DNA from: a virus
Lineage: Duplodnaviria > Caudoviricetes
DNA length: 61,941 bases
Strand: one strand, 5' to 3'
IMG/VR virus record: IMGVR_UViG_3300033144_000144
Location: 1 to 61,941 of that record
Shown: piece after piece, positions 2,441 to 20,118 of the stretch
Numbering within the stretch: the stretch's first letter is position 1
Layout of the letters: each line of letters opens with the position of its first letter
The notes under the pieces: generated by a model
Databases searched by the model: none
Seen by the model: the letters and a program-made list of their open reading frames with translations, nothing else
What the model was told of the DNA's origin: nothing
Position numbers and translations under genes: made by a program

Positions 2441-2666
2441 TAACCATATAAGGATTATCCTCGATCAACATCTCGTGTCCAGATGATTTATCATAATAGA
2501 TAATATCACCTTCGTTTATAACACTCACATCTGTACCTGACTTAATTACCTCACCCTTACGATATCTAAAGTCCGATGCGTCTTGTGCTGAAAGCAAAAG
2601 ACCTGATTCGGTTTTTAGTTCTTCTTTAATGGTTTTGATAATAATGTATTTACCTATTGGTTTCAT
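2409..2666 (-). CDS. groES: Co-chaperonin GroES
   Basis: MKPIGKYIII...TESGLLL...GEVIKSG...GDIIYY...ERDVV; ATGA-coupled to GroEL. Confidence 0.92.
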   Translation of the reverse strand: MKPIGKYIIIKTIKEELKTESGLLLSAQDASDFRYRKGEVIKSGTDVSVINEGDIIYYDKSSGHEMLIEDNPYMVITERDVVVVL

Positions 2667-4321
2667 CTTTCAGCTCTTTTATGTGTAACGATTGCATTAG
2701 TAGTTAAGATAGTTGTGGCTACACTAATAGCATTCATCAATGCGTTCTTAGTTACTTTGGCTGGATCTACAATCCCCATCTCAATCATATCTCCATACTC
2801 TTGTTTAAACACATCGTATCCTTTTGTATTGAATGCTGGGTATGGTGCATTTTCGAAATCACCAAAAGCTCTCTCATCATATATCTCTTTCAATACTTCA
2901 TCTTCATCTAATCCAGCGTTCTTAAGTATTTGTTGAAGTGGTGCTTTAAGTGCTTCTCGAATAATCATTTCAGTAGCCTGGTCTTCTGCAATAGTTTCAT
3001 CTGTTGCATCTTCACAATTACAACCGAAGTGACGGTGTATATCATATAAGAATAATCCGCCTCCAGGCAGAATGCCTTCTTGTAGTGCGGAACGCACTGC
3101 ACACACCGAGTCATCGACTCGGTCAAATTTTTCTTTTTGCTCTATATCTGAGTTAGCTCCAACATATATACAACCAATACCTCCAGCCAAACTCGCAATC
3201 CTTTCGTTGATAAACTCTTTCTCATGTTTAGCTGTGGTATTATCTTGTTGAACTTTTAGTTCTGCAATTCTATTAGTTATCTCTTCTGACTGATCTCCAT
3301 CTTTTATAATTACTGTATTTGTTTTACCTACAATAATCTTATCTGCAAAACCTAAATCGTCTGCTGTGATTAAAGATAAATCATCTCCAGTCTTTTCAGA
3401 AAAGTATTTAGCCCCAATAGCTAAAGCAATATCTTGCATAAGCTCGTGAGTCTTATATCCAAATGAAGGCGGTAGTATATTACAGAACTTCAAACCATTA
3501 CGAGCAACATTAGCTGCCAGTGTATTAATTACATTACCAGAACATGTTCCTATGATAAGTAACTTTTCTCCAGCATTGATAATTGGTTTTAGAATATTTT
3601 CGATTTGAAGGATATTGTTAATCTCAGTATCACATACTAATACTCTAACACCCTCCATGATACACTCATCTTTTCTCTGGTCATTAATAAACAATGGTGA
3701 AGTATAACCTCTATCGATTCGAATACCGTTGGTAACTTCAGAGTAAGTTTCATCTGTTTGAGATCTTTCAACTGTTACTATTCCATCTTGACCAACTTGC
3801 TTATATGCATCAGCAATAATTTTACCTAAATCAAAATCATTGTTAGCAGAGATAGAAGCAATGTGATATAACATATCATCGGTAACCTCAACTGAGCGTT
3901 CTTTAATCTTTTTAAGAATAATTTCAGAGTCATACTTAATTCCATTAATTACCTCCCACACATTGTGATGAGGTTGTATCCATTTTAGTCCAGCCTTTAC
4001 AAAAGCCTCAGCTAATACAATAGCAGTAGTTGTTCCATCTCCAGCTACATTAGCTGTTTTCTCAGATGCTTGTTTAATCATTCTAACCGCAAGGTTCTCA
4101 ATTGGATCATCGAGATGAATTGACTTAGCTACAGTAACTCCATCTTTGGTAACTGTTAATCCTTGTAAATGGTCTGGTGATTCTACCAACACTGTTTTAC
4201 CTCGTGGCCCAAGTGTTGATTTAACTGCTTTAGAGATTTTAGTTATTCCGCTGATTAACTTCTCTCTTGCCTCCTTATCAAAAGTAAGGTCTTTTGGAAT
4301 GTATCCTTGTTCTGCATTCAT
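2663..4321 (-). CDS. groEL: Chaperonin GroEL
   Basis: TLGPRG, VTKDGVTVAK, AGDGTTT, DRGYTSPLFI, EGILPGGG, GIVDPAKVT motifs. Confidence 0.97.
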   Translation of the reverse strand: MNAEQGYIPKDLTFDKEAREKLISGITKISKAVKSTLGPRGKTVLVESPDHLQGLTVTKDGVTVAKSIHLDDPIENLAVRMIKQASEKTANVAGDGTTTAIVLAEAFVKAGLKWIQPHHNVWEVINGIKYDSEIILKKIKERSVEVTDDMLYHIASISANNDFDLGKIIADAYKQVGQDGIVTVERSQTDETYSEVTNGIRIDRGYTSPLFINDQRKDECIMEGVRVLVCDTEINNILQIENILKPIINAGEKLLIIGTCSGNVINTLAANVARNGLKFCNILPPSFGYKTHELMQDIALAIGAKYFSEKTGDDLSLITADDLGFADKIIVGKTNTVIIKDGDQSEEITNRIAELKVQQDNTTAKHEKEFINERIASLAGGIGCIYVGANSDIEQKEKFDRVDDSVCAVRSALQEGILPGGGLFLYDIHRHFGCNCEDATDETIAEDQATEMIIREALKAPLQQILKNAGLDEDEVLKEIYDERAFGDFENAPYPAFNTKGYDVFKQEYGDMIEMGIVDPAKVTKNALMNAISVATTILTTNAIVTHKRAER

Positions 4322-4353
4322 AAGAAATATATTTAATTTAAATTAATTATGGG

Positions 4354-4608: not shown

Positions 4609-4809
4609 TTAGAACTTAAATATCTTCTTATGTTCTTTACGCATCTCAGCTCTTTCAATACCGTCAGCGATTTTATCTATTTCATATTGCTTCTTCATTT
4701 GATTTCTATACATCGAAGCCTCTTGGATTCCAGTCATACCAACTGGGCGATCATTAATTAATCTTCCGTTCTTAATTCTTAATCCGTCCATGTCTGCGTA
4801 CTTTTTCAT
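4609..4809 (-). CDS. Hypothetical protein
   Basis: 66-aa ORF with -7 element at 4825-4832 and a downstream terminator. Confidence 0.7.
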   Translation of the reverse strand: MKKYADMDGLRIKNGRLINDRPVGMTGIQEASMYRNQMKKQYEIDKIADGIERAEMRKEHKKIFKF

Positions 4810-4944
4810 ATCGTTTATTTTTTACAAAGATATAAAAATTTTTTAGATGTCTGGGGGCTGAGGGTTATATGTCATCATACATTGCGTTGTGCGTTTAGAA
4901 AACAAAAAAAAATTTGCACCCCCCCCTAACCAAATCGGTTCACC

Positions 4945-5086
4945 TTGTCCAAATGTTTTGGCTTTTTTTCCAGCTGGGCTGGATGGCTACCTCTGTCCAG
5001 TTAGATAGGTGTACCAGTTACCCTTGTCCAGTTGTCGTTGTCCAGTTAAGTTGTCCAGTTAAGCTACCTTCCCCCATCTGACCAGT
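4945..5086 (+). repeat. Iteron-like direct repeats (T/C)TGTCCAGTT
   Basis: Copies at 4993, 5024, 5038, 5051; variants at 4945, 5011, 5078; in the non-coding gap between divergent arms. Confidence 0.8.
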
Positions 5087-5258
5087 AAGGATAAGACAAA
5101 TGCTCACTTTGAATAGACAAAGAGAGATGTCTTATAACCCCTGACCGAGAGCCATAATGCGTAAACAAAACAAAAAAGTTATCAACAATCTAACTGACTG
5201 ATAATCACTGACATTACATATTGAATTTGTATGGGACAATGTATTCAACAAGTATTTG

Positions 5259-5290
5259 TTTGTCTATGTCATAGAATTAGACTATCTTTA
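5259..5290 (+). promoter_or_regulatory. Early promoter TTTG-N20-TATCTTTA
   Basis: Near-consensus Bacteroidota -33/-7 ahead of first early ORF. Confidence 0.65.
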
Positions 5291-5325
5291 CACTGAATTT
5301 AAACATTAAACAAACACAAATTATT

Positions 5326-5583
5326 ATGAAAAATTACGAAAAAGCATTCGAAGAATTGAGAAAATTGAACATAGCTGTCCAGCGTAACTGGGGCGATGAC
5401 AAGGTACACGAAGACAGAGGTTACTTCTGGATATGGTGCGAAGGCATCACTGATGAAACCAGTTATCACATCGACTACTGGAACAGATTCGAAGGTAGCG
5501 AAAAGGTTCAGTCGATACTGGAGAAGCACGACCTATATTTCGAATGGGAGAATAGTGCAGTAGCATCAATCTACGATGCATAA
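5326..5583 (+). CDS. Early hypothetical protein (FEWEN motif)
   Basis: 85-aa ORF with AU-rich leader. Confidence 0.8.
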   Translation: MKNYEKAFEELRKLNIAVQRNWGDDKVHEDRGYFWIWCEGITDETSYHIDYWNRFEGSEKVQSILEKHDLYFEWENSAVASIYDA

Positions 5584-5584
5584 A

Positions 5585-5638
5585 GGCAATCTGATGAGAC
5601 CTGAATGGTCGAAACTGGAGGAGACTCCAGTCATTGTC
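5585..5638 (+). ncRNA. Hammerhead ribozyme type I (HH1), predicted cleavage after C5632
   Basis: Stem I GGCAAT/ATTGTC; CTGATGA; stem II GACC-TGAAT-GGTC; GAAA; stem III CTGGAG-GAGA-CTCCAG; GTC triplet. Confidence 0.93.
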
Positions 5639-5662
5639 AAACAAAATTTAAACGAAATTATT

Positions 5663-5899
5663 ATGAATTTAATTGCAAAAAATCCCAAGCATCAAACGAT
5701 GGTTAACCGATGTGTTAACTGGTTAAAAAAGTACAATGAGTACAACACACAAAGAGACATTGCTGATGGCAATGGAGATGAAAAGCAGTATGCTAAATGG
5801 GACAAGAAATGCATCAAAGCATTCGATATGTACCTTGAGTACCTATCTGAATTACCGAAGAGAGAGGTAACTCAAATCGAGAAATCAGAATTATATTAA
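5663..5899 (+). CDS. Early hypothetical protein
   Basis: ORF 5576..5899; likely start MNLIAK at 5663 because the upstream portion is HH1. Confidence 0.7.
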   Translation: MNLIAKNPKHQTMVNRCVNWLKKYNEYNTQRDIADGNGDEKQYAKWDKKCIKAFDMYLEYLSELPKREVTQIEKSELY

Positions 5900-5919
5900 T
5901 CACTAAAAATCACACAGAA

Positions 5920-6492
5920 ATGAACACACAAAATTTGAATTTAATCGCAACTCAGCTGAAGGTAACTCAGCTGGTGAACCAGTACCACAAAGTGTACAAA
6001 GCTACACTGGAGAAGAATCTGAACGATAAACCAATCAAGAACGATGGCTGGGATTCTATGCAAGAGAGAGAAGAACAAGTATCTTACAAGTTAGGTAACA
6101 AGTTTTATCCGAAGTTAAGAATGATACTGGAAGAGGTAGGTATCTCAAATGATATGGCTACCACCATCGGACATCTGTTACTGGACGAGCCAAGTAAGGA
6201 ACACTGGACAATAATCAAGTCTTTCTTTGAGCCAATTGAATTCATCAGTGAGGATGAAATCAATAGATCTATAGAAAAGCATAATGGGTACACTAACATT
6301 GAGACCTACAGACTATGTCTGATACTGGATAACATTGTTATGAAACATAATGCTATGCACTACTTTTTCGAGTACCTCCAGCAAGGAGAATTCACTGAAA
6401 AAGACTACCATAAAATTAACTGGAACGAGGTTAATGAGAGGTATTTAGAACAACATATGGATATTAACTATGATAACATCCTGAATCGATAA
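5920..6492 (+). CDS. Early hypothetical protein
   Basis: 190-aa ORF. Confidence 0.75.
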   Translation: MNTQNLNLIATQLKVTQLVNQYHKVYKATLEKNLNDKPIKNDGWDSMQEREEQVSYKLGNKFYPKLRMILEEVGISNDMATTIGHLLLDEPSKEHWTIIKSFFEPIEFISEDEINRSIEKHNGYTNIETYRLCLILDNIVMKHNAMHYFFEYLQQGEFTEKDYHKINWNEVNERYLEQHMDINYDNILNR

Positions 6493-6555
6493 ATACTCTG
6501 ATGAGCAACACTGGAAGGTGGCGAAACTTCCCCAGTCAGCTGGGGGAGTCAGTAT
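6493..6555 (+). ncRNA. Hammerhead ribozyme type I (HH2), predicted cleavage after C6550
   Basis: ATACT/AGTAT; CTGATGA; stem II GC[AA]CACT-GGAA-GGTGGC; GAAA; stem III CTTCCCCAG-TCAG-CTGGGGGAG; GTC. Confidence 0.9.
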
Positions 6556-6573
6556 AAACTAAATAATATAAAA

Positions 6574-7011
6574 ATGGGATACAACACAGACTGGAATGGG
6601 TACTTGGAGACAAGTCGACCATTCACCGAAAGCGAGATTAATCAGTGGACAGAGATGGCTGAAACAAGGCACGATAGCGAGTACCATTATGGTAACTCAC
6701 AAAGGGAATACCCATCAATATGGTGCGACTTTGAAATCAGTAATCAGGAAGGTACTGGAGTCTTCCAGTGGAACGGAAGTGAAAAAACCTATGAAGGTTT
6801 AGGATGGATTAAATACTTCCTTAACTGGACAATGAAACTTGATGAACCAATGGTGGTGAAAGGTAGGTTTGATTGGGAAGGTGAAGAAGAAGGTGATGAA
6901 GGAGTAGTTATAGTAGAACGCAAAGATAGAGACTACATCATCCATATTGGTGAGGTAGAAAAACATTACCACAAAGTGATGAAGGCACATACTCTGATGA
7001 GACTTAAGTAG
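6574..7011 (+). CDS. Early hypothetical protein (MGYxTDW...WNGxEKxY...GEEExD)
   Basis: 145-aa ORF bracketed by HH2 and HH3. Confidence 0.8.
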   Translation: MGYNTDWNGYLETSRPFTESEINQWTEMAETRHDSEYHYGNSQREYPSIWCDFEISNQEGTGVFQWNGSEKTYEGLGWIKYFLNWTMKLDEPMVVKGRFDWEGEEEGDEGVVIVERKDRDYIIHIGEVEKHYHKVMKAHTLMRLK

Positions 7012-7043
7012 TCGAAACTACTCCAGCTGGAGTAGTCAGTATG
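6988..7043 (+). ncRNA. Hammerhead ribozyme type I (HH3), predicted cleavage after C7037
   Basis: CATACT/AGTATG; CTGATGA; GACT-TAAGT-AGTC; GAAA; CTACTCC-AGCT-GGAGTAG; GTC; overlaps last codons of 6574..7011. Confidence 0.93.
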
Positions 7044-7064
7044 AATTTAAATAATAACACACAA

Positions 7065-7553
7065 ATGAAAAAGTACATTGTAATAGATACTTGGAATGGT
7101 GAAGGTTACTCCGACCAAAATGGAGTAGATACCAAGCAGTTTCAGTATAAAAAGTCAGCATTTAAATATGCTTATGACAGAACCTTAAGTAATGCTGATG
7201 GAGATGCAGATTTAGTTTGCAGATATTCAGATGAAGAATCTGATAGTGAACACTGGTCACCAGTTAAAAGAGATGCTGATGGAGATGGATTCTATTGGGA
7301 TACCTATGATGATAATTCAGGTAGCTATCAAGTTTATGAGATTAAAGATGCATATGCAGTTATGATACTATGCAACACAAACGAAGTTTATATGCTTACT
7401 GAAGATGAGTACATCGACAGAAAAAATGAATTGTATGAAGATTATGCTTCAGCTGAATATACAGATGAAATATATGAAGAAGAAAATGGTGATTCTTTTT
7501 ATCCAGCAATAGATGATTATGACTACCAATTTAGATTAATTAAAAACCTATAA
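7065..7553 (+). CDS. Acidic early hypothetical protein
   Basis: ORF 7041..7553; start 7065 (MKKYIV) or 7041. Confidence 0.75.
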   Translation: MKKYIVIDTWNGEGYSDQNGVDTKQFQYKKSAFKYAYDRTLSNADGDADLVCRYSDEESDSEHWSPVKRDADGDGFYWDTYDDNSGSYQVYEIKDAYAVMILCNTNEVYMLTEDEYIDRKNELYEDYASAEYTDEIYEEENGDSFYPAIDDYDYQFRLIKNL

Positions 7554-7555
7554 AA

Positions 7556-7738
7556 ATGAAAAAGACAATAATAATATTCTCTGCAATAATCACATTGAGT
7601 AGTTGTGGAATGATGAACAAGTTATCTGATGAGCAATTACATCAAAGAAATAAAATTGATTATGAGATGTCAAAACTTTGGAATGAATACCAAGTAAAGA
7701 ACGACTCTTTACTAATTGAATACTATAAAATTAAATAG
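7556..7738 (+). CDS. Small lipoprotein
   Basis: MKKTIIIFSAIITLSS-C signal peptide II/lipobox. Confidence 0.75.
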   Translation: MKKTIIIFSAIITLSSCGMMNKLSDEQLHQRNKIDYEMSKLWNEYQVKNDSLLIEYYKIK

Positions 7739-7740
7739 AT

Positions 7741-8079
7741 ATGGAAATGAAAATTATGAGATTAAGCGAAGTAACATTTGAGATGTTACAGAACCAGTAT
7801 CCTGAATGCTACAAATCAAAATTCGGCAGAGGTGTAACAATGCCAAATGCAGATGACTCACAAAGAGTAATATCTAATGAGGATGCGTTAACACACTACA
7901 AAGAATTAATGATTGGCATGTGGGGAGATGTAATGATTCAATTAAATCCTGAAAGTTTCACTTGGTTTGACCGAGTACAGATTCAGGATGCAAACTTCAA
8001 AGATGCACGAAGAAGATTTACAGAACACAAAGCCGAAGTCATTGCTGACTGGAGCAAAAAAGGATACAATACCGATTAG
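7741..8079 (+). CDS. Early hypothetical protein
   Basis: 112-aa ORF. Confidence 0.75.
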   Translation: MEMKIMRLSEVTFEMLQNQYPECYKSKFGRGVTMPNADDSQRVISNEDALTHYKELMIGMWGDVMIQLNPESFTWFDRVQIQDANFKDARRRFTEHKAEVIADWSKKGYNTD

Positions 8080-8173
8080 TTTGTGTGTGAAGAAGGTTTA
8101 ATTCACCTTCCTACCTTAACCTCAATGCGTAAATGCATTGGGGATTTGGTGGTAGAGGGATGTTCCTCGCAAA
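8080..8173 (+). ncRNA. Candidate structured RNA (multi-stem junction), family not recognised
   Basis: TTTGTG/CGCAAA closing; GAAGGT/ACCTTC; CTACC/GGTAG with internal loop and CCTCAATGCG/TGCATTGGGG; GAGGG/TCCTC. Confidence 0.55.
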
Positions 8174-8189
8174 ATTAAATTAAATTATT

Positions 8190-8648
8190 ATGGCAAAAAG
8201 AATTGCAAATTTCAATGTATCTGACCACTTATCCAGTCAGATAGAATACTTTCAGAAAAACAAAGGAGAGTATCAAGAAAACTTTACCAATGGATTTGAT
8301 GACAGAAGTTTAGATCTAATTACTGACAAAGAGATACAAGATTATTTCTTTTCAGCTGATAGTGAAGAACACCATTATCACTGGGAAGACTTCCTCTATG
8401 ATTTAGAAGAAGAATTCAGTCAGTACATAGGTAAAGTAGTTTCTGTTGAAGGAAGAAATATGGGCTGGAATAATAAAACTGGCTACAAGACATTTCAAAT
8501 TGAATCTACTGAAGATATCTTCAGACAGATAGCACCTGAATGTGACTTGACTTTTTCAATAGACAAAGTAGATAACAAAGAATATGAGGTGGTCATAGCA
8601 CATCACGACTCACCAATGGGAGAAAATTATAACTTAAAAATTAAATAG
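8190..8648 (+). CDS. Early hypothetical protein (GRNMGW...HHDSPMGE)
   Basis: 152-aa ORF. Confidence 0.8.
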   Translation: MAKRIANFNVSDHLSSQIEYFQKNKGEYQENFTNGFDDRSLDLITDKEIQDYFFSADSEEHHYHWEDFLYDLEEEFSQYIGKVVSVEGRNMGWNNKTGYKTFQIESTEDIFRQIAPECDLTFSIDKVDNKEYEVVIAHHDSPMGENYNLKIK

Positions 8649-8650
8649 AT

Positions 8651-8890
8651 ATGGCAATTAAAAGACATCCAAAAGACAGAGGATATGGTTACAAGAAATC
8701 ATATAACTATGAGCAATCGATAGCTGAACACGAAGATTTAGAACCAACAAAAGAAGACTGGGCAAAGTTAAGGGAGAGAATGCCTTCACTGATATGTGAG
8801 TCACTAATCTTTGGATTTGGGGCTGGTACATTCCTTCTGATTATAGCTTCGATAATCATCGGAGTATTGAACCTATTACACACATTATAA
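8651..8890 (+). CDS. Small membrane protein
   Basis: C-terminal hydrophobic segment LIFGFGAGTFLLIIASIIIGVL. Confidence 0.7.
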   Translation: MAIKRHPKDRGYGYKKSYNYEQSIAEHEDLEPTKEDWAKLRERMPSLICESLIFGFGAGTFLLIIASIIIGVLNLLHTL

Positions 8891-8899
8891 ACACAAAAG

Positions 8900-8931
8900 T
8901 TTGGTTATTTAATATATTTAAACTATTATTG
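8900..8931 (+). promoter_or_regulatory. Promoter TTTG-N20-TATTATTG
   Basis: Near-consensus -33/-7, intergenic. Confidence 0.55.
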
Positions 8932-8948
8932 TACAAAATTTAAACATT

Positions 8949-9185
8949 ATGACAGAGCAACAATACCATTCTCTTACAAGATATCTTGCAGAGGAAACTG
9001 CACACCATAAGTTTGGTGAGGATGCAGTACACTACAACTCCAGCACTGGAGAACACGAATTCACACATCACGCTGAAAAATTTATTAGAGATGAAATTAG
9101 TAATCTTGAATTTCTGTTTGAGGTGTATGATGTGAAACCTAAATTAAGTTTAATTAAAAGAATAAAAAAATGGCTGAAAAATTAA
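8949..9185 (+). CDS. Hypothetical protein
   Basis: 78-aa ORF. Confidence 0.7.
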   Translation: MTEQQYHSLTRYLAEETAHHKFGEDAVHYNSSTGEHEFTHHAEKFIRDEISNLEFLFEVYDVKPKLSLIKRIKKWLKN

Positions 9186-9538
9186 TTGACAAAGTAGATG
9201 ATGGATTCAACTACTTTAGTTACCGATTAGAAGAATTAAAGACAGATGATGTGTACTACATAAAAGCATTTATGAAGTACATTGAATCTCTTGAATCAAA
9301 ACTATCTAAAGTTAGTAAAGACTACAGAAACACATTAAATGATTATCAGTCACCTATGTGGCTGATGACATACAATGATGTTGTTGGAGGATCTACACAC
9401 GAGGTAGTTACAAATGATCCCCAGTTATATCTCAAGAGACTTAACAGAGACAGAGTAGCTGATGGTGAATTACCTGATACGATGGATGAATTCACCAAGA
9501 CCTTAATCAAATTAGAAACCTTTAAAAAATCAAAATAA
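9170..9538 (+). CDS. Hypothetical protein
   Basis: 122-aa ORF. Confidence 0.7.
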   Translation: MAEKLIDKVDDGFNYFSYRLEELKTDDVYYIKAFMKYIESLESKLSKVSKDYRNTLNDYQSPMWLMTYNDVVGGSTHEVVTNDPQLYLKRLNRDRVADGELPDTMDEFTKTLIKLETFKKSK

Positions 9539-9801
9539 TGAGAGAAGTAAAGATTAGTAGTCGTACTATATACTCCAAGACTTGTGAGATATATATTGAA
9601 ATTCCAAAAGACATACCTCAAGATAAAGTATCAGACTGGTTATTCGAAAACGAAATAAAGTGGACTGATGCTATCGACAATGCAAATGGCGAAGCAGTTT
9701 TAGACTTCGGATTTGGATTAGATGATGGTATGGAAGATAAGAATTCTGAACACGAGATGAGATTTGACATCGTAGGTGAAAACTATGGTGGACATATTTA
9801 A
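9538..9801 (+). CDS. Hypothetical protein
   Basis: 87-aa ORF, TAATG coupling. Confidence 0.75.
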   Translation: MREVKISSRTIYSKTCEIYIEIPKDIPQDKVSDWLFENEIKWTDAIDNANGEAVLDFGFGLDDGMEDKNSEHEMRFDIVGENYGGHI

Positions 9802-9857
9802 ATACTCTGATGAGCCAATGAGATTTTGGCGAAACTGGTAGCAATACCAGTCAGTAT
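9802..9857 (+). ncRNA. Hammerhead ribozyme type I (HH4), predicted cleavage after C9852
   Basis: ATACT/AGTAT; CTGATGA; GCCAA-TGAGATT-TTGGC; GAAA; CTGGTA-GCAA-TACCAG; GTC. Confidence 0.94.
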
Positions 9858-9875
9858 AAATTAAATAAAATCGTT

Positions 9876-10604
9876 ATGCCTAATTATGTTTATTGTGGGA
9901 TATCTCCCACTAAAGATTTGACTCCTGAACAAATCGAGATAGCAAAAAAGATTCAGGAAGCTGGAGGATTATGTAGATATTATGTACCAAGACCAGCTGA
10001 ATTAGATAAGACTACTTCACCAACAAGAGTAGTTAGTGATGAAGAGTATCACAAAGCAATGAAACTCAATGAGACTGAAAAATTTAAATCTTATCCTATT
10101 ACAAGGGAGATGCAAAAGTCTTTATTGAAAGCACATAACTTTGACAATTGGTACGATTGGTCACACTATCACTGGGGAACAAAGTGGGGAGATTGTGACT
10201 TCGATATAGACTGGAATAAAGATGGAACTCACTTCGAAATGAGGTTTGATACTGCTTGGTCACCAATTGCTTTAGAAATTATTATTATGTTTGCTAAAGA
10301 TTTCCCTGATTTCACTTACTGGTGGGAAGAAGAACAAGGATGGGGAGGAGAATGCGACTACACTAATGGAGAAGAGTCAAGATATATGGAGTATGATATT
10401 CCAAACTGGACTGATGAAGAAGAAGTAGAGATCTCGCATAAAGGAAAGCTAATAGTTACTACGCTGACTAAACTTGCAGACCAGCATCCTAACTATGATA
10501 ATGGTACTGGATACTATTTAGATTATGGTCACGAATATGCTGGTAAGACAAGAATCGAAGCACTGGAATATGTGATGAAAAATTATGAGAAAGAAAATGT
10601 TTAG
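9876..10604 (+). CDS. DUF1281/YubB-type ferredoxin-like domain protein
   Basis: MPNY...NWYDW...WGTKWG...FDTAWSP signature. Confidence 0.8.
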   Translation: MPNYVYCGISPTKDLTPEQIEIAKKIQEAGGLCRYYVPRPAELDKTTSPTRVVSDEEYHKAMKLNETEKFKSYPITREMQKSLLKAHNFDNWYDWSHYHWGTKWGDCDFDIDWNKDGTHFEMRFDTAWSPIALEIIIMFAKDFPDFTYWWEEEQGWGGECDYTNGEESRYMEYDIPNWTDEEEVEISHKGKLIVTTLTKLADQHPNYDNGTGYYLDYGHEYAGKTRIEALEYVMKNYEKENV

Positions 10605-10893
10605 GTTAATTAGACAAGAGAAGCTGAAGTCGAAACCTGATGTAGATTATATCAGGTTTCTTCAGCAACTTACCGACAGAGAAAATGTTAAAGCATTCCT
10701 ATCCGAATATAAGCAAACTAAACATTTAGAAAAGCTACGCAAAGCCAATGTAATTGAATTAAATGACTACTTTAATTATAGTGGTAAGCGAGAAGAGAAC
10801 GGAAGAATAACAAAGAAACCAATTGAATATCAGGATAAAAAAACTATCACGATAATCAATGATATGAGTAAATATAAATTTAATAAAAATTAG
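10585..10893 (+). CDS. Hypothetical protein
   Basis: 102-aa ORF. Confidence 0.6.
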   Translation: MRKKMFRLIRQEKLKSKPDVDYIRFLQQLTDRENVKAFLSEYKQTKHLEKLRKANVIELNDYFNYSGKREENGRITKKPIEYQDKKTITIINDMSKYKFNKN

Positions 10894-10894
10894 T

Positions 10895-11176
10895 ATGAAA
10901 AAAACCACTGAAGAATTAATCAAAGAAGTAGGGAGAGAAGTAGTTATGTTGCTACTTGAAAAGAACAAAGCGTATGGCGATACTGCCAACAAGCCCCCTA
11001 AAATATTTTCAAAGCTATCAGCAAAGGAAGGTATCCTTGCAAGGATCGATGACAAGTTAAGTAGGATCAAGCAAGTAGGTATCAATGACAAAACAGAAGA
11101 CACTTTGCTGGATCTTATTGGCTACCTTATATTGTATAGAGTACAATGTAAGATGGAAGAAATTAAAAAAAGTTAA
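10895..11176 (+). CDS. DUF1599 / nucleotide-modification-associated domain 1 protein
   Basis: KNKAYGD...RIDDKLSRI...EDTLLDLIGYLIL. Confidence 0.8.
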   Translation: MKKTTEELIKEVGREVVMLLLEKNKAYGDTANKPPKIFSKLSAKEGILARIDDKLSRIKQVGINDKTEDTLLDLIGYLILYRVQCKMEEIKKS

Positions 11177-11182
11177 ACATAA

Positions 11183-11214
11183 TTTGCTCAAGTAATACTA
11201 AAGTATTATCTTTG
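11183..11214 (+). promoter_or_regulatory. Consensus Bacteroidota promoter TTTG-N20-TATCTTTG
   Basis: Perfect -33/-7 match. Confidence 0.8.
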
Positions 11215-11331
11215 ACAACTAATAAAAATTAAGGTGTGTAATGGTAGTAGCGTAATTATCTACAACACACTTAATAAGAGAGAAATCATTTGCGAACCAA
11301 ACTCTTGCCTTATTTTTCTAAATTCAATTAA

Positions 11332-11625
11332 ATGAAAAAAAATATTTTCGATGCGTATGCGTTAGCAATCGCAAAGCAATTTCATCTGTCACTCGATCAG
11401 ATGTTTACCAAGACTAAAAGAAGAGAGGTAGTAGATGCAAGACAAATGTTATACTATCTCTGTATGGAAAGACCAATTCGTATATCCTACATACAAAGAT
11501 TTATGGAGGATGCTGGATTAAGCGTATGCCACTCTACTATTATACATGGTTACAAGAAAGCAAAGGAGACTATAGATAAAGATAAAGACTTTAAAGATAT
11601 AGTAACTCAACTTCAGGATGTATAA
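11332..11625 (+). CDS. Stand-alone DnaA C-terminal (domain IV) HTH protein
   Basis: TKRREVVDARQMLYYL...HSTIIHG matches DnaA_C signature. Confidence 0.8.
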   Translation: MKKNIFDAYALAIAKQFHLSLDQMFTKTKRREVVDARQMLYYLCMERPIRISYIQRFMEDAGLSVCHSTIIHGYKKAKETIDKDKDFKDIVTQLQDV

Positions 11626-12025
11626 TTTAGAAGACATATTTACTCAAGCCGAAGCTGATGCATCAGGGATACAGATTACAATGCTCAATGGGAAAAGCAT
11701 TGTAAACTATGGTGTAAAGATTCAGAAGTTTCCATCCAAGATCGAGATACTTAATTGTGGTCGAAGTGGAGATTACTTTAACGAATGCAACGATGATGAG
11801 TATAAACTTTTCTTCAAGTACGGATGGAGAGAAGGTGCATTAAGATTATCATTATCCAATTATAAACGGAAGTTAGATATGATTGAAGAAAAAATCAGGA
11901 CTGAAGTTAACACAAGGAAAAATGATAAGCACATTCAACGACTTAAAACGAGTCGAGAAAAATTATTAATTAAATATAGTAACAGAAATCGTAAATTAAA
12001 TTTATTAAACAATGGGACAAAGTAA
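11618..12025 (+). CDS. Hypothetical protein
   Basis: 135-aa ORF. Confidence 0.7.
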   Translation: MYNLEDIFTQAEADASGIQITMLNGKSIVNYGVKIQKFPSKIEILNCGRSGDYFNECNDDEYKLFFKYGWREGALRLSLSNYKRKLDMIEEKIRTEVNTRKNDKHIQRLKTSREKLLIKYSNRNRKLNLLNNGTK

Positions 12026-12629
12026 GAAAAACAATTTCAAGGATTTATCTTCCATATCTATTGCAGATAAAACAGATAAGAAAGGAAAGTTTAGCTATTT
12101 ATCTTGGGCTACTGCTTGGTCGATGATCAAGACAGAACATCCTGATGCACAAAGAACAGTGTATGAATCTGAACATACTGGACTTAACTTCTTTACAGAT
12201 GGTAAGTCAGCATATGTGAAGGTAGGTATTACTATTGATGGTATGGAACACATAGATTACCTACCAGTAATGGACTATCGTAATAATTCTATTCCAATTG
12301 ATAAGGTAACATCAATGGATGTAAACACTGCAATTCAAAGATCAACTGCAAAAGCTATTGCTATGCATGGATTAGGTTTATCATTATGGATTGGTGAAGA
12401 CACAATGATGGTGGCTAAACCTACTGCACAAGCAGTGGCTAAAACACCAGTGCCACCAAAGAAAATTACCACAATGGAATTAAATATTGGTGATGAGAAT
12501 TGGGATAAAGTTATTAAGTACATAGTAGCTAATAAACAATTAGGGCTACCTAAAATTGTAAAGCAACTGGAAGCCAAGTACAAGATAAAAGCAGTAGTAA
12601 AAAAGGAATTATCAAAACATATTAAATAA
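12012..12629 (+). CDS. Sak3/DUF1071 single-strand annealing recombinase
   Basis: FSYLSWATAW...LPVMDYRN...NTAIQRSTAKAIAMHGLGL. Confidence 0.85.
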   Translation: MGQSKKNNFKDLSSISIADKTDKKGKFSYLSWATAWSMIKTEHPDAQRTVYESEHTGLNFFTDGKSAYVKVGITIDGMEHIDYLPVMDYRNNSIPIDKVTSMDVNTAIQRSTAKAIAMHGLGLSLWIGEDTMMVAKPTAQAVAKTPVPPKKITTMELNIGDENWDKVIKYIVANKQLGLPKIVKQLEAKYKIKAVVKKELSKHIK

Positions 12630-13387
12630 TGAAGTTTACTACTAAACAATGGAAAGAAAGCATTGAGAAGCTAAAAGATGATTCTCAATATTACGGAGAC
12701 TTTGGTAAACAATACTTATCAAACTCTGATATCATAACTCTACTTAATGATCCTAAAAATTTCAGGAAAGAAAAGGAGATGACCAAAGCTATGCTACTTG
12801 GAAGATACTTCCATACTGCAATGTTAGAACCTAACAAACTACATAGCGAAGAGTACATTCCTATTGATGCATCAAGTCGTAGCACTAAAAAGTATAAAGA
12901 AGAAATTCTACAATACAACAGACCGATAATGATGCTGAAAAAGGAAATGGAAGAGATAGATGTGGCTATCAATACAATGAAAGCTAACCTTGAATTCTAT
13001 GATGCAATCTATCATCCAAAGAATGAGTATGAAGTACCAGCTATCCAAGAGGTAGAAGGTATGATGTGGAAAGGTAAAGCTGATATTGTAGCTGAAGATA
13101 TTCTTATTGATCTGAAGACAACTTCAAACATCAAAGATTTTAAATACTCGGCTCGTAAGTATAATTACGATAGTCAAGCGTATCTTTACCAGCAATTCTT
13201 TGGTAAGCCACTGGTATTCTATGTGGTAGATAAATCAACATATGAATTAGGAATCTATTATCCATCTCAAACTTTCTTGGAGTATGGAAAAGACAAAGTA
13301 GAGAGAGCAATAGAAGTGTATAACAAATTCTTTAAAGAAAATGCAGAAGAAAATATTGAATCTTATATCATTAAAGAAACTCTTTAA
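12629..13387 (+). CDS. PD-(D/E)XK exonuclease (RecE/ExoVIII-like, DUF3799)
   Basis: LSNSDI...GRYFH...KGKADI...DLKTT...YDSQAYLY. Confidence 0.85.
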   Translation: MKFTTKQWKESIEKLKDDSQYYGDFGKQYLSNSDIITLLNDPKNFRKEKEMTKAMLLGRYFHTAMLEPNKLHSEEYIPIDASSRSTKKYKEEILQYNRPIMMLKKEMEEIDVAINTMKANLEFYDAIYHPKNEYEVPAIQEVEGMMWKGKADIVAEDILIDLKTTSNIKDFKYSARKYNYDSQAYLYQQFFGKPLVFYVVDKSTYELGIYYPSQTFLEYGKDKVERAIEVYNKFFKENAEENIESYIIKETL

Positions 13388-13511
13388 GTATAAAAAAAAT
13401 GATGTCGTGTGGTTGCAAGTTCCTAACAACCTCAAGACTCAAGCTGATCGTGACAAGGTCATGGAGGCAACAATGAACAAATTGGAACAAATAATTTACA
13501 AATCAATTTAA
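13341..13511 (+). CDS. Possible small protein, 56 aa
   Basis: Hand translation MQKKILNLISLKKLFKYKKNDVVWLQVPNNLKTQADRDKVMEATMNKLEQIIYKSI fills the gap; start uncertain. Confidence 0.4.
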   Translation: MQKKILNLISLKKLFKYKKNDVVWLQVPNNLKTQADRDKVMEATMNKLEQIIYKSI

Positions 13512-13513
13512 TT

Positions 13514-13783
13514 ATGGCAGAAGAAAAAATCTATGTCGGAAACGGAGTTTCCAAATTCGAAGGGAATCTTATCTCTTGTAGTGTGTGCTTAACAGATCTT
13601 CCACAGGAACATATGTTCGAGTACAATGGTAAGAAGTACATTAAGTTAAATGTACAAGCAAAGCGTGATGGTGCTGATGAGTATGGCAAGACACACTATG
13701 TGGCAGTCGATACTTACAAACCTGAACCAAAGAAGGAAGAAGTAAAACCTACTGCACCAGCAGAGGAAGATCTTCCATTCTAA
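13514..13783 (+). CDS. Putative ssDNA-binding protein
   Basis: Acidic C-terminal tail EEDLPF; follows SSAP and exonuclease. Confidence 0.7.
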   Translation: MAEEKIYVGNGVSKFEGNLISCSVCLTDLPQEHMFEYNGKKYIKLNVQAKRDGADEYGKTHYVAVDTYKPEPKKEEVKPTAPAEEDLPF

Positions 13784-13805
13784 TACTTGTTTTAGTAGAA
13801 AAGTT

Positions 13806-13834
13806 AGGGGACTTGTTCCCCTTTCTTTTTCTTT
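13806..13834 (+). terminator. Intrinsic terminator
   Basis: AGGGGA-CTTGT-TCCCCT followed by TTCTTTTTCTTT. Confidence 0.75.
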
Positions 13835-13839
13835 AATCG

Positions 13840-13942
13840 GTGTCGAAGTGTCAAGTAAAATAAAATTATAGACTATTAGTATTAATATATACTTCTATCT
13901 ATTTACTTTTTACTTTTTTAAAATACTTTGACACTTTAACAC
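13840..13942. repeat. Origin-like element copy B
   Basis: GTGTCGAaGTGTCAA-N12-TATAGACTA...TTGACACtTTAACAC, directly upstream of primase-helicase. Confidence 0.7.
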
Positions 13943-13975
13943 TAAATATTAATTAAAATATATCAACCAACTCAA

Positions 13976-19280: not shown

Positions 19281-19989
19281 CGAAATAAGACCAAGGCTGA
19301 GTGGTAATCGAAGAACCGCATACGAACAGCTGACAAAAAACGAAAGAAGAATATTAGTAATTGGAGATCTTCATTGCCCTTTTGAGTTGGAGGGTTATCA
19401 TCAGCACTGCCTGGACACCTATGCTAAATTTAATTGTAATCAAGTAATATTCATTGGGGATTGTTTGGATAATCATTATTCCAGCTACCATGAGACAGAT
19501 GCAAATGGTATGGGCGGAGCTGATGAACTCCATTACGCAATACATTGTTTGGCTAAATGGAATCATTCATTCCCAAAAGCAGATGTTATAATCGGAAATC
19601 ATGATCGCATGATAATGAGACGAGCTCAAACTTCTAATGTACCAGCTGAATGGATCAAGACTTACAATGAAGTATTAGGAACTAATTGGAACTGGACAGA
19701 AAGAGTTGTGTACGATGGTGTACAATACATACATGGGGAAGGGGGTACTGCTCGTACCAAAGCAAAAAATGATATGATGTCGACTGTACAGGGCCATATC
19801 CATACACAGGCGTACTGTGAGTGGATGGTTGGTAGAAACTTTAGGGTGTTTGGAATGCAAGTGGGCTGTGGAATTGATGCCTCATCATATGCGGCAGCTT
19901 ATGCAAAACACTTTAAGAAACAAGCAATTGGTTGTGGAGTAGTAATAGGAGGACATACTGCTATCAATTGTTTAATGGATTTAAAATAA
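19270..19989 (+). CDS. Calcineurin-like metallophosphoesterase
   Basis: GDLH, GDCLD, GNHD, HG, GHIH motifs. Confidence 0.9.
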   Translation: MKSNEIRPRLSGNRRTAYEQLTKNERRILVIGDLHCPFELEGYHQHCLDTYAKFNCNQVIFIGDCLDNHYSSYHETDANGMGGADELHYAIHCLAKWNHSFPKADVIIGNHDRMIMRRAQTSNVPAEWIKTYNEVLGTNWNWTERVVYDGVQYIHGEGGTARTKAKNDMMSTVQGHIHTQAYCEWMVGRNFRVFGMQVGCGIDASSYAAAYAKHFKKQAIGCGVVIGGHTAINCLMDLK

Positions 19990-19995
19990 GAACCA

Positions 19996-20069
19996 GGACG
20001 AGTAGCTCAATTGGATAGAGCATTAGCCTTCTAAGCTAACGGTTGAAGGTTCGAGTCCTTCCTCGTTCA
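19996..20069 (+). tRNA. tRNA-Arg (anticodon TCT)
   Basis: Acceptor GGACGAG/CTCGTTC; D arm AGCTCAATTGGATAGAGC; anticodon arm TTAGC-CT TCT AA-GCTAA; T arm GAAGG-TTCGAGT-CCTTC; no encoded CCA. Confidence 0.95.
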
Positions 20070-20118
20070 CGAAATAAAATAAAATGTTTAGAGAAAAATT
20101 AATAGTAATCTGGCCATC

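What the first reader, a model, noticed from the sequence alone, without database searches (positions are those of the whole stretch)
5585..9857. Four hammerhead ribozymes punctuate the early operon, each at a stop codon
Seen: four complete type I hammerhead folds (5585-5638, 6493-6555, 6988-7043, 9802-9857), each with CUGAUGA, GAAA and a GUC triplet. Stems II and III differ in sequence but stay paired, mostly with GNRA-type or tetraloop caps. Three begin 1-2 nt after the upstream stop; HH3 overlaps it. Each cuts 23-30 nt before the next likely ATG. Known: hammerheads leave a 5'-OH and a 2',3'-cyclic phosphate, and they have been reported in phage intergenic regions. Inference: the phage has a protein-independent system that cuts its early mRNA into cassettes (5633-6550, 918 nt; 6551-7037, 487 nt; 7038-9852, 2815 nt; 9853 onward), analogous to RNase III processing of T7 early RNA. 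It may set stability or open SD-less leaders for translation.
Basis: partly seen in the sequence, partly recalled or inferred. Interest (0 to 1): 0.9.

Follow-up and report, generated by a model that had tools for sequence, protein, structure and literature searches.

The report
Four hammerhead ribozymes between phage genes
Four real hammerhead self-cutting RNA motifs sit exactly at gene boundaries in the variable early-gene block of a complete 62-kb phage, a known kind of arrangement whose biological role is still untested, and a second, unnamed structured RNA occupies the same kind of slot.

Summary
Four complete type I hammerhead motifs lie on the + strand at 5585-5638, 6493-6555, 6988-7043 and 9802-9857. 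A descriptor found 4 hits, against 0 in 300 shuffles. A covariance model built from relatives scores them 61.2, 60.8, 42.6 and 33.9 bits; the next best match scores 12.

Rfam's curated thresholds miss all four. The window is a complete phage genome with terminal repeats. Its relatives infect Flavobacteriia.

About 100 similar hammerheads occur in related viral contigs, with compensatory changes in all three stems. Placement is stereotyped:
- the stop codon abuts stem I;
- the cut lies 19-37 nt before the next ATG in 85 of 93 cases.

They occur only in the hypervariable early block and are patchy at orthologous junctions.

Processing of long phage transcripts by clustered hammerheads was proposed, and shown in vitro, in 2011 (PMC3088659). 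This is therefore a new member of a known kind. No RNA data exist for this phage, so cleavage in vivo and its purpose remain inferred.

A second conserved RNA motif (8103-8172) with no Rfam match fills the same slot.

The parts
5585..5638 (+). HH1, a type I hammerhead. Stem I is GGCAAU/AUUGUC (6 bp), stem II 4 bp with loop UGAAU, stem III 7 bp with loop GAGA. Predicted cut is after C5632.
   Evidence: 60.8 bits; this sequence is in the training alignment; the minimum-energy fold equals the hammerhead fold; 35-39% of the ensemble in context.
6493..6555 (+). HH2, a type I hammerhead. Stem I is 5 bp (AUACU/AGUAU). Stem II is GC-(AA bulge)-CAC with a 6-nt loop. Stem III is 10 bp with loop UCAG. 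Predicted cut is after C6550.
   Evidence: 33.9 bits. The same stem II type recurs in L008, L011, L069, L070, L074 and L076. The predicted fraction of the ensemble in the full hammerhead fold is below 1%.
6988..7043 (+). HH3, a type I hammerhead. Stem I is 6 bp, stem II 4 bp with loop UAAGU, stem III 8 bp. Predicted cut is after C7037. Its 5' half encodes the last 8 codons and the stop (7009-7011) of ORF 6574-7011.
   Evidence: (61.2 bits, not in the training set).
9802..9857 (+). HH4, a type I hammerhead. Stem I is 5 bp, stem II 5 bp with a 7-nt loop, stem III 7 bp with loop GCAA. Predicted cut is after C9852.
   Evidence: 42.6 bits. An identical stem II occurs in L067 and L074. The closest relative carries a hammerhead at the orthologous junction, L076:576-699.
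5633..5662 (+). The 30-nt A-rich leader left on the downstream RNA after the HH1 cut, ending at ATG 5663.
6551..6573 (+). The 23-nt leader after the HH2 cut, ending at ATG 6574.
7038..7064 (+). The 27-nt leader after the HH3 cut, ending at ATG 7065. An in-frame ATG at 7041 is an alternative start.
9853..9875 (+). The 23-nt leader after the HH4 cut, ending at ATG 9876.
5326..10604 (+). The block of small accessory genes that the hammerheads punctuate. ORFs: 5326-5583, 5663-5899, 5920-6492, 6574-7011, 7065-7553, 7556-7738, 7741-8079, 8190-8648, 8651-8890, 8949-9185, 9170-9538, 9538-9801, 9876-10604.
   Evidence: The genes have 0-19 homologues among 80 relatives' loci, against 67-80 for the genes from 11332 onward.
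8103..8172 (+). A second structured RNA ('motif 2') in the same kind of slot. It follows stop 8077-8079 and is followed by a 21-nt A-rich leader to ATG 8190. It is not a hammerhead.
   Evidence: (78.5 bits).

Best explanation
The four sites are genuine type I hammerhead self-cleaving ribozymes. They are encoded on the coding strand of the hypervariable accessory ('early-like') gene block of a complete 61.9-kb phage with terminal repeats, whose host is probably a member of the Flavobacteriia.

Proposed mechanism:
1. They are transcribed as part of one long polycistronic RNA.
2. Each folds once its 3' stem I strand has emerged, and cuts after C17 (C5632, C6550, C7037, C9852).
3. Because the topology is type I, the whole ribozyme body, carrying a 2',3'-cyclic phosphate, stays as a compact structured 3' end on the upstream mRNA.
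4. The downstream mRNA begins with a 5'-OH, the 5-6 nt of stem I, and an unstructured A-rich leader without a Shine-Dalgarno sequence, 23-30 nt in all before the ATG.
5. The likely effect is to uncouple neighbouring cistrons, so that stability and translation initiation are set for each cassette.

What is shown and what is inferred:
- Shown: the motif, its statistics, covariation in relatives, and the stereotyped placement.
- Inferred: co-transcription, cleavage in vivo, and the physiological effect.

My odds are about 0.9 for ribozyme identity, 0.75 for cleavage in infected cells, and 0.5 for cistron uncoupling as the selected function.
For: Motif and statistics:
- 4 descriptor hits against 0 in 300 shuffles.
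- R1 scores of 33.9-61.2 bits, against 12.0 for the next best match in the window.

Family and covariation:
- A core pattern that fixes only the core, 3 pairs of stem I and the closing pairs of stems II and III matched 80 places (64 unique) in 71 IMG/VR stretches.
- Of the 64 unique matches, stem II has at least 3 pairs in 53, stem III at least 5 pairs in 61, and both in 52. The shuffled-interior control gives 11.0, 4.0 and 0.7.
- In the 34-sequence alignment A2, 14 of 17 pairs show changes on both sides. The covariation score is 0.72, against 0.15 for shuffles and at most 0.10 for slid registers. The rows were chosen for pairing, so the 100% paired figure is by construction.

Strand and placement:
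- All 30 R1 matches in the 80 relatives' loci lie on the strand of the primase gene.
- Among 97 unique hammerheads, stem I is exactly 6 pairs in 81, and the base before stem I is A in 87.
- The upstream stop ends within -1 to +2 nt of the start of stem I in 39 of the 92 with a scorable upstream ORF. In 9, the UGA of CUGAUGA is itself the stop.
- The cut-to-ATG distance is 19-37 nt in 85 of the 93 with a downstream ORF.

Orthologous junctions keep a hammerhead while its stems change:
- L076:576-699, after an 86%-identical upstream gene, has a different stem II and an 85-nt stem III.
- The 6574-7011 gene family is flanked by hammerheads on both sides in the window and in 3 of its 13 homologues, in L045 and in L026/L083, two loci of one contig.

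Other support:
- HH1 and HH3 fold as hammerheads at minimum free energy.
- No + strand terminator-like site lies between 4300 and 13805.
- Precedent: clustered prophage hammerheads cleave in vitro (PMC3088659, passages). Type I hammerheads that fill the intergenic UTRs of fungal RNA viruses cleave in vivo and are needed for translation (PMC13725137, abstract and passages).
Against: - There is no RNA evidence of any kind for this phage.
- No Rfam hammerhead model reaches its gathering score. Rfam also flags 0 of 24 descriptor hammerheads in 7 relatives' loci.
- HH2 and HH4 have 5-pair A/U-rich stem I helices. Secondary-structure thermodynamics places the full hammerhead fold at under 1% (HH2) and 0.2-13% (HH4) of the ensemble.
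- No tertiary contact between stem I and loop II was established.
- Hammerheads are dispensable for a given gene. Only 8 of 23 homologues of ORF 9538-9801 have one just downstream, only 3 of 13 homologues of 6574-7011 are flanked, and 0 of 60-89 homologues of each of six core genes (11332-16387) have one.
- Start regions are predicted to be open with or without cleavage.
- 'Early' timing and the promoter are not established. The sigma-70 scan found fewer sites than chance, and a Bacteroidetes-type promoter consensus that I recalled gave 2 matches against 4.3 expected.
Confidence: 0.65

Rival explanations
1. The hammerhead plus its leader is mainly a mobile or recombining intergenic module. The conserved 13-20 nt blocks (stem I, core and leader) act as microhomology for shuffling accessory gene cassettes, or the element spreads selfishly. 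Cleavage would then be incidental to gene expression. This reading does not exclude the best explanation.
For: - Hammerheads occur only in the mosaic block. The window region 4800-11300 aligns to relatives only in patches, whereas 11320-14000 is collinear at 72-77%.
- Presence is patchy at orthologous junctions: 8 of 23 and 3 of 13.
- The 5' half of the hammerhead at the HH4-orthologous junction of L076 is 97% identical over 39 nt to the window's HH2, not to HH4. Protein identity drops from 86% upstream to 43% downstream of that junction.
- HH2, HH3 and HH4 share the same stem I and leader start.
Against: - Microhomology alone would not maintain three paired stems through compensatory changes, or an invariant catalytic core.
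- It would not explain the strict strand bias of 30 of 30.
- It would not explain the tight spacing to the stop and the ATG.
Confidence: 0.2
2. Cleavage is conditional. Ribosomes terminating at, or translating into, the ribozyme unfold stem I and the core. The stop abuts stem I, and for HH3 it lies inside stem II. The cut would therefore report translation of the upstream cistron, or physiological Mg2+, and would tune expression of the downstream gene.
For: - The stop codon sits within about 1 nt of stem I or inside the ribozyme.
- HH2 and HH4 are predicted to be only marginally stable.
- Perreault et al. raise regulated cleavage for slower phage variants (PMC3088659, passages).
Against: - No sensor element or alternative conserved pairing was found.
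- Close packing at the stop is also what a compact phage genome would give by itself.
Confidence: 0.1
3. Paired hammerheads excise segments of 918, 487 and 2815 nt whose 5'-OH and 2',3'-cyclic-phosphate ends are joined by a host RtcB-type ligase into circular or spliced RNAs.
For: The end chemistry of hammerhead products suits such ligases (review PMC6765202, passages). The segments are bounded by two hammerheads of the same topology.
Against: - Perreault et al. looked for spliced or circular products from clustered prophage hammerheads and detected none (PMC3088659).
- Of the 22 window proteins scanned against Pfam, none matched an RNA ligase or an RNA end-healing enzyme.
- Most relatives' loci carry a single hammerhead.
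Confidence: 0.03
4. The motifs are chance look-alikes or decayed relics without catalytic activity.
For: They fall below the Rfam gathering scores. Stem I of HH2 and HH4 is weak.
Against: - 0 hits in 300 shuffles.
- A perfect 15-position core in 4 of 4.
- Covariation across the family.
- R1 E-values of 5e-8 to 9e-17.
Confidence: 0.02

Closest known systems
Clustered hammerhead ribozymes flanking genes in prophages (Perreault et al. 2011, PLoS Comput Biol, PMC3088659; passages read)
   Same: - Several hammerheads close together flank single genes or short gene blocks of phage origin, and the flanked genes vary.
- The same proposal was made: long phage transcripts are processed into gene-length mRNAs.
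- The core and pairing criteria used there (C3 U4 G5 A6 N7 G8 A9 G12 A13 A14 A15.1 U16.1 H17, with the pairs next to the core intact) are met by all four sites here.
   Different: - Those examples are in prophages of Clostridium, Azorhizobium and Agrobacterium and mix types I, II and III.
- Here all are type I, in a complete lytic-looking phage of a Flavobacteriia-infecting group, with a stereotyped stop / stem I / roughly 25-nt leader layout that I did not find described.
- I could not see their Dataset S1, because supplements are closed. It may already hold members of this subfamily from marine metagenomes.
RAGATH-1 hammerhead (Rfam RF03152)
   Same: It is the best Rfam match for HH3, HH2 and HH1. 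Shared features are type I topology, a 5-pair stem I, a long stem III and the GACUU start of stem II. HH1 also has a hairpin just upstream (5563-5581).
   Different: Scores of 34.9, 30.3 and 24.6 bits are far below the gathering score of 56.3. HH4 does not match at all. The upstream hairpin is not convincing for HH2-HH4. Stem II here is a regular 4-5 bp helix. What I say about the origin of RAGATH-1 is recalled; the paper was not held.
Type I hammerheads in UTRs and intergenic regions of chrysovirids and fusarivirids (Lopez-Galiano et al. 2026, NAR, PMC13725137; abstract and passages read)
   Same: They are type I hammerheads with a long helix III that fill the short untranslated region before an ORF. 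In one case a 66-nt intergenic UTR has the cut 7 nt before the start codon. Cleavage occurs in vivo, and self-cleavage is required for translation of the downstream ORF.
   Different: Those are eukaryotic RNA viruses, and the role concerns cap-independent translation. That study set aside hits in DNA bacteriophages. The bacterial translation and RNA decay machinery is different.
RNase III processing sites of T7 early mRNA
   Same: Cuts fall between early cistrons of one long transcript and leave a structured 3' end on the upstream piece.
   Different: T7 uses a host protein enzyme acting on irregular hairpins and leaves 5'-phosphate and 3'-OH ends. Here the RNA cuts itself and leaves 5'-OH and cyclic-phosphate ends. 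Motif 2 at 8103-8172, a 5-bp helix, internal loop and 9-bp helix, looks more like a T7-type site than the hammerheads do. This was not tested.
HHphage of haloviruses HF1 and HF2 (discussed in PMC3088659)
   Same: A hammerhead lies 13 nt before the start codon of an early gene. The mapped 5' end of the transcript lies within 3 nt of the cleavage site.
   Different: It is an archaeal virus, a core-variant hammerhead that needs high salt, and a single copy at the start of the transcript.

Membership tests
Hammerhead ribozyme | Conserved catalytic core: C3 U4 G5 A6 N7 G8 A9, G12 A13 A14, A15.1-U16.1, H17. | tested here: met
   All four carry CUGAUGA, GAAA and ...GUC with C17. Criteria are as listed in PMC3088659.
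Hammerhead ribozyme | Three helices around the core, with the pairs next to the core intact (10.1-11.1, 1.1-2.1, 15.1-16.1). | tested here: met
   Stem I is 6, 5, 6 and 5 bp. Stem II is 4, 5 (with an AA bulge), 4 and 5 bp. Stem III is 7, 10, 8 and 7 bp. G10.1-C11.1 is present in 4 of 4.
Hammerhead ribozyme | Stems kept by compensatory changes in homologues while the core stays fixed. | tested here: met
   14 of 17 pairs change on both sides in A2. In an unselected set, 52 of 64 have stems II and III both paired, against 0.7 expected. The orthologous junction in L076 has different stems.
Hammerhead ribozyme | Score at or above the Rfam gathering threshold of a hammerhead model. | tested here: not met
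   Hammerhead_1 scores 19.7 against 34, Hammerhead_3 scores 20.0 against 48.5, and RAGATH-1-hammerhead scores at most 34.9 against 56.3. Rfam also flags 0 of 24 relatives' hammerheads. I read this as narrow seed alignments rather than as evidence against the fold.
Hammerhead ribozyme | Tertiary contact between stem I and loop II that allows fast cleavage at cellular Mg2+. | tested here: inconclusive
   The geometry is conserved: stem I is exactly 6 bp in 81 of 97, A flanks it on both sides, and loop II is U-N-N-R-U in the commonest class. No covarying pseudoknot was identified.
Hammerhead ribozyme | Site-specific self-cleavage giving 2',3'-cyclic-phosphate and 5'-OH ends. | not testable with these tools
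   No RNA run holds the stretch. An in vitro transcription assay is needed.
Type I topology | Stem I is open; stems II and III are closed by loops. | tested here: met
   The order is 5' stem I strand, CUGAUGA, stem II hairpin, GAAA, stem III hairpin, UC, 3' stem I strand, in 4 of 4.
RAGATH-1 hammerhead (RF03152) | A conserved upstream hairpin and linker, a minimal stem II, and a score of at least 56.3 bits. | tested here: not met
   Scores are 34.9, 30.3 and 24.6 bits, and HH4 has no match. Only HH1 has a clear upstream hairpin.
Ribozyme-processed polycistronic phage transcript (Perreault-type arrangement) | Several hammerheads on the coding strand of one co-directional gene block, with no terminator between them. 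| tested here: met
   Four lie on the + strand within 4.3 kb. No + strand terminator-like site lies between 4300 and 13805. The transcript itself was not observed.

The most novel reading that the evidence does not exclude
In a large clade of Flavobacteriia phages, the variable early block is punctuated by two unrelated structured RNAs that fill the same slot: stop codon, RNA, A-rich leader of about 21-25 nt without a Shine-Dalgarno sequence, then AUG. One is the type I hammerhead. The other, motif 2 (window 8103-8172), is a new self-cleaving ribozyme class or a dedicated RNA-processing signal. Together they would form a 5'-end-generating system that launches translation of individual cistrons in hosts that do not use Shine-Dalgarno pairing. 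This would be the bacterial counterpart of the ribozyme-dependent translation just shown for fungal RNA viruses.
Probability: 0.15. Interest if true: 0.8.

Novelty: new member of a known kind. Interest (0 to 1): 0.5.

Why it matters
The biological role of bacterial and phage hammerheads is still called largely elusive (review PMC6765202).

This phage group offers an unusually clean natural data set:
- about 100 type I hammerheads, all in one topology, in one genomic slot and on one strand;
- copies gained and lost between close relatives;
- none of them visible to standard Rfam annotation (0 of 24 flagged).

That makes the question 'what does the cut do?' testable by comparing orthologous junctions with and without a ribozyme. 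Cultured relatives exist: Flavobacterium phages of the genus Elemovirus, one of which carries a weaker hammerhead.

The layout parallels the ribozyme-dependent translation reported in 2026 for fungal RNA viruses. It points to a possible link with Shine-Dalgarno-independent initiation in Bacteroidota.

The co-located motif 2 is a candidate for the approach that found twister, pistol and hatchet, namely looking next to hammerheads.

Tried and rejected
- **RNA evidence.** The look-up of sequencing runs listed no RNA holder. Three metatranscriptome runs of the same study hold next to none of the stretch's words. I therefore did not use read laying, because contigs with no matching words cannot show RNA ends.
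- **Rfam.** The gathering search of the window found only a tRNA. The hammerheads appear only below threshold.
- **Near relatives in the 'phages' collection by DNA.** No match. A protein search found only distant cultured relatives.
- **Terminal hairpin.** I tested whether the stem I 3' strand refolds into a 5'-terminal hairpin after the cut. This holds for 13 of 97, against 11.5 in shuffles, so it is not enriched overall. One subfamily of 8 does share a conserved hairpin.
- **Promoters.** The sigma-70 scan found 59 sites, against 77.6 in shuffles. Neither is informative.
- **Leader opening by cleavage.** The effect is small, 0.9-2.5 kcal/mol.
- **Tertiary contact.** By eye, loop II of HH1 and HH3 could pair with AUUUA in the leader. 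I did not test this statistically, because A/U-rich flanks make chance matches common, and I make no claim.
- **RNA repair enzymes.** None was found among the 22 window proteins scanned against Pfam.
- **Motif 2 against Rfam.** No relevant match at E up to 10.
- **Gene-specific operator.** I rejected this for motif 2, because its downstream genes fall into 13 clusters among 20 instances.
- **Literature on the layout.** These searches found no paper describing this stop/hammerhead/leader layout in DNA phages: hammerhead + Flavobacterium phage (0 papers); hammerhead ribozymes + phage + start/stop codon + intergenic; hammerhead + Bacteroidetes + phage + mRNA stability. Subscription papers and supplements were not searchable.

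Full report
**What the window is.** The 61,941-base window is a whole IMG/VR virus record with direct terminal repeats, rated 100% complete.
- The - strand carries GroEL (2663-4321) and the structural and packaging genes (portal, large terminase). Two proteins of 2893 and 1603 residues have no Pfam match.
- The + strand block from about 5.3 to 20.5 kb holds many small ORFs of unknown function. They are followed by a Sak-like annealing protein, an exonuclease, a primase-helicase, a helicase and a metallophosphoesterase.
- The primase-helicase has only distant cultured relatives, all phages of Flavobacteriia or Bacteroides (Flavobacterium 21 records, Nonlabens 4, Polaribacter 2, Cellulophaga 2, Maribacter 1, Bacteroides 1).
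- 14 of the 18 bacterial genome contigs that hold the same hammerhead pattern are Flavobacteriales or Bacteroidetes assemblies.
- Start codons in the block are preceded by A/T-rich leaders without a Shine-Dalgarno sequence, which fits such a host.

**The observation.** The descriptor requires CUGAUGA, a closed stem II, GAAA, a closed stem III ending in U, then H, then a stem I that pairs with the bases before the core.
- The same descriptor found 0 hits in 300 dinucleotide-preserving shuffles of the window, both strands. A relaxed version added nothing.
- The core pattern read backwards gives 0.
- I built covariance model R1 from 34 hammerheads: 33 from other viral contigs plus HH1. With filters off over the whole window it scores HH3 at 61.2, HH1 at 60.8, HH4 at 42.6 and HH2 at 33.9 bits. 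The fifth-best match is 12.0 bits, E 0.49. There are four copies and no more.
- HH1 and HH3 adopt the hammerhead secondary structure as their minimum-energy fold.
The gap after the stop is 0-1 nt. Stem I of HH2 and HH4 is 5 pairs. Only two of the four stem III loops are GNRA.

**Rfam.**
- At gathering thresholds Rfam 15 reports only the tRNA.
- With E-value reporting, three sites match RAGATH-1-hammerhead at 34.9, 30.3 and 24.6 bits (gathering score 56.3). HH1 matches Hammerhead_1 at 19.7 (34). HH4 gets only a mis-registered Hammerhead_3 match at 20.0 (48.5).
- The same holds for relatives. Seven loci with 24 descriptor hammerheads gave 0 hammerhead matches at gathering thresholds.
- I take this as narrowness of the curated models, because every defining sequence and pairing criterion is met.

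**The family.** A pattern fixing only the core, three stem I pairs and the closing pairs of stems II and III matched 80 places in 71 stretches of IMG/VR contigs, many of them 55-65 kb.
- Of the 64 unique matches, stem II has at least 3 consecutive pairs in 53, stem III at least 5 in 61, both in 52, and the three outer stem I positions pair in 53. With interiors shuffled the means are 11.0, 4.0, 0.7 and 13.0.
- In alignment A2, 14 of 17 pairs show changes on both sides. The covariation score is 0.72, against 0.15 for shuffles and at most 0.10 for slid registers. The rows were selected for pairing, so the 100% paired figure carries no weight. The number of pair types does.
- Stem II comes in a few recurring designs. 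HH1 and HH3 have the common one, 4 bp with a U-N-N-R-U loop. HH4's stem II is identical in L067 and L074. HH2's bulged stem II recurs in L008, L011, L069, L070, L074 and L076.

**Placement.** Among 97 unique hammerheads with their flanks:
- stem I is exactly 6 consecutive pairs in 81;
- the base before it is A in 87, and each of the two bases after it is A in 80;
- of the 92 with a scorable upstream ORF, the stop codon ends within -1 to +2 nt of the first stem I base in 39;
- in 9, the UGA inside CUGAUGA is the stop;
- of the 93 with a downstream ORF, the distance from cut to ATG is 19-37 nt in 85.

The window's four sites (30, 23, 27 and 23 nt) are typical. The cut never removes a stop codon from the upstream ORF. 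I found no description of this layout in DNA phages.

**Distribution among relatives.** The search for related loci with the primase-helicase confirmed 273 relatives and kept 80 loci.
- R1 found 30 hammerheads in 22 of the 80 loci, all on the primase strand. L076 adds one that R1 missed because its stem III is 85 nt long. Several loci do not reach far enough upstream, so these are lower bounds.
- Genes from 11332 onward have homologues in 67-80 of the 80 loci. The genes between 5326 and 10893 have 0-19.
- DNA similarity to eight relatives is patchy before about 11,300 and collinear after it.
- Hammerheads lie only in that mosaic part. None sits next to any of the 60-89 homologues of each of six core genes (11332-16387).
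- They are facultative. A hammerhead lies just downstream of 8 of 23 homologues of ORF 9538-9801. Of the 13 homologues of ORF 6574-7011, 3 are flanked on both sides: L045 and L026/L083, which are two loci of one contig.
- Where the junction is shared the ribozyme is kept but its stems differ. After an 86%-identical upstream gene, L076 has a hammerhead whose 5' half is 97% identical to the window's HH2 rather than to HH4.

**How it most likely works.** There is no + strand terminator-like site between 4300 and 13805, and the genes are tightly packed. A long polycistronic RNA is therefore the simplest reading, although it is not observed.
- Each hammerhead should cut after C17. This follows from the established chemistry of the class (PMC6765202).
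- Type I topology leaves the ribozyme body with a 2',3'-cyclic phosphate on the upstream piece. The downstream piece keeps a 5'-OH, 5-6 bases of stem I and an A-rich leader.
- I infer that this uncouples neighbouring cistrons in stability and translation.
- The specific claim that cutting opens the leader is weak. Predicted opening energies of the start region are 1.2-2.4 kcal/mol when cleaved and 2.2-4.8 kcal/mol when uncleaved.

Points against efficient cleavage: HH2 and HH4 are predicted to populate the full fold at under 1% and 0.2-13%, and I could not identify the tertiary contact between stem I and loop II. No public RNA run holds the region.

**Known parallels.**
- Perreault et al. 2011 (PMC3088659; passages read) report that multiple hammerheads flank genes or short gene blocks in prophages. 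They propose processing of long phage transcripts. They show that about 2-kb constructs from three bacteria give the products expected if all ribozymes are active. They looked for spliced or circular products without success.
- The 2019 review (PMC6765202; passages) still calls the roles elusive.
- A November 2026 paper (PMC13725137; abstract and passages) shows type I hammerheads filling the UTRs before ORFs of fungal RNA viruses, cleavage in vivo, and dependence of translation on self-cleavage. It set hits in DNA phages aside.
- The window's sites are thus new members of a known kind.

**A second RNA in the same slot.** The 110-nt spacer 8080-8189 folds well (z = -3.95) and is conserved in relatives.
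- *Structure.* It comprises a 5-bp helix (P2), an internal loop whose 3' side is (A/U)UUU, a 9-bp hairpin (P3, CCUCA...UGGGG) and a conserved GUGGUA. Many copies also have a GAGG/CCUC hairpin (P4).
- *Occurrence.* Model R2 scores the window copy at 78.5 bits, with no second convincing copy. It found 62 matches in 92 sources, 60 of them in the sense orientation, in 30 of the 80 primase loci and up to 3 per locus.
- *Covariation.* On the model-fitted alignment, P3 is 98.9% paired with 7 of 9 pairs changed on both sides. P2 is 79.2% paired with 4 of 5 changed. That alignment leans towards the structure.
- *Placement.* In the 20 unique full-length copies with a downstream ORF, the distance from the last CCUC to the ATG is 20-23 nt. 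The downstream genes fall into 13 clusters. It is therefore a generic intergenic module, not a gene-specific leader.
- *Relation to hammerheads.* In L144 the motif core is followed directly by a hammerhead, whose stem I takes the place of P4.
- *Rfam.* No relevant match at E up to 10.
- *Candidate functions.* An unknown ribozyme, or a T7-like RNase III site. Neither was tested. The hairpin plus a short U run also resembles a weak terminator.

**Verdict.** Novelty: new member of a known kind. Interest is moderate (0.5), for three reasons: the size and regularity of this unannotated subfamily, cultured relatives that allow the function to be tested, and the co-located unnamed motif.

Noticed in passing
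window 8080-8189 (core 8103-8172, + strand); relatives such as L083:1747-1814, L133:2483-2550 and 4280-4348, L132 (3 copies), L144 (3 copies): A conserved structured RNA ('motif 2') lies between a stop codon and a 20-23-nt leader. It is a 5-bp helix, an internal loop with (A/U)UUU, a 9-bp hairpin and GUGGUA, with an optional GAGG/CCUC hairpin. R2 found 62 hits in relatives. The two main helices covary, the downstream genes are diverse, and there is no Rfam match. It may be a new ribozyme or an RNase III-type processing site.
   Followed up: partly
L144:1295-1439: The motif 2 core is followed at once by a hammerhead, whose stem I sits where motif 2 usually has its last hairpin. The two elements can be fused in tandem.
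   Followed up: partly
window 19996-20070 (+): A tRNA-Arg (anticodon TCT) is embedded between ORFs (stop at 19989, next ATG at 20119) in the same + strand block. RNase P/Z processing there would cut the same kind of transcript a fifth time.
   Followed up: no
window 4938-5062 (+): A cluster of TTGTCCAGTT-like repeats, two of them in exact 13-nt tandem at 5037-5062, lies in the non-coding region just upstream of the first + strand gene. It resembles iterons or operators.
   Followed up: no
relatives, e.g. L013, L020, L022, L037, L040, L041, L045, L068: In one subfamily the leader starts with AUAA plus a copy of the 5' stem I strand. The cleaved downstream RNA could therefore form a 5-bp hairpin at its 5' end. 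Over all 97 hammerheads such hairpins are no more common than in shuffles (13 against 11.5).
   Followed up: yes
9 of 92 relatives' hammerheads: The UGA inside the catalytic CUGAUGA serves as the stop codon of the upstream ORF. The ribozyme core and the end of the gene share bases.
   Followed up: partly
L193:5927-6034 (MT497078.1 27080-27187): In the cultured Flavobacterium phage vB_FspP_elemoE_10-3D, a 35-residue CDS annotated on the opposite strand covers a hammerhead-like site (R1 35.9 bits; stems II and III imperfect). The CDS is probably spurious.
   Followed up: partly
L203 (2857-bp contig of a sediment MAG), 76-2637: Four matches to the hammerhead pattern lie within 2.6 kb of one short contig labelled only 'bacterium'. 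It is probably a fragment of a similar phage.
   Followed up: no
window 20752-29433 and 34753-39564 (- strand): Two very large ORFs (2893 and 1603 residues) have no Pfam match. I did not pursue their nature.
   Followed up: no
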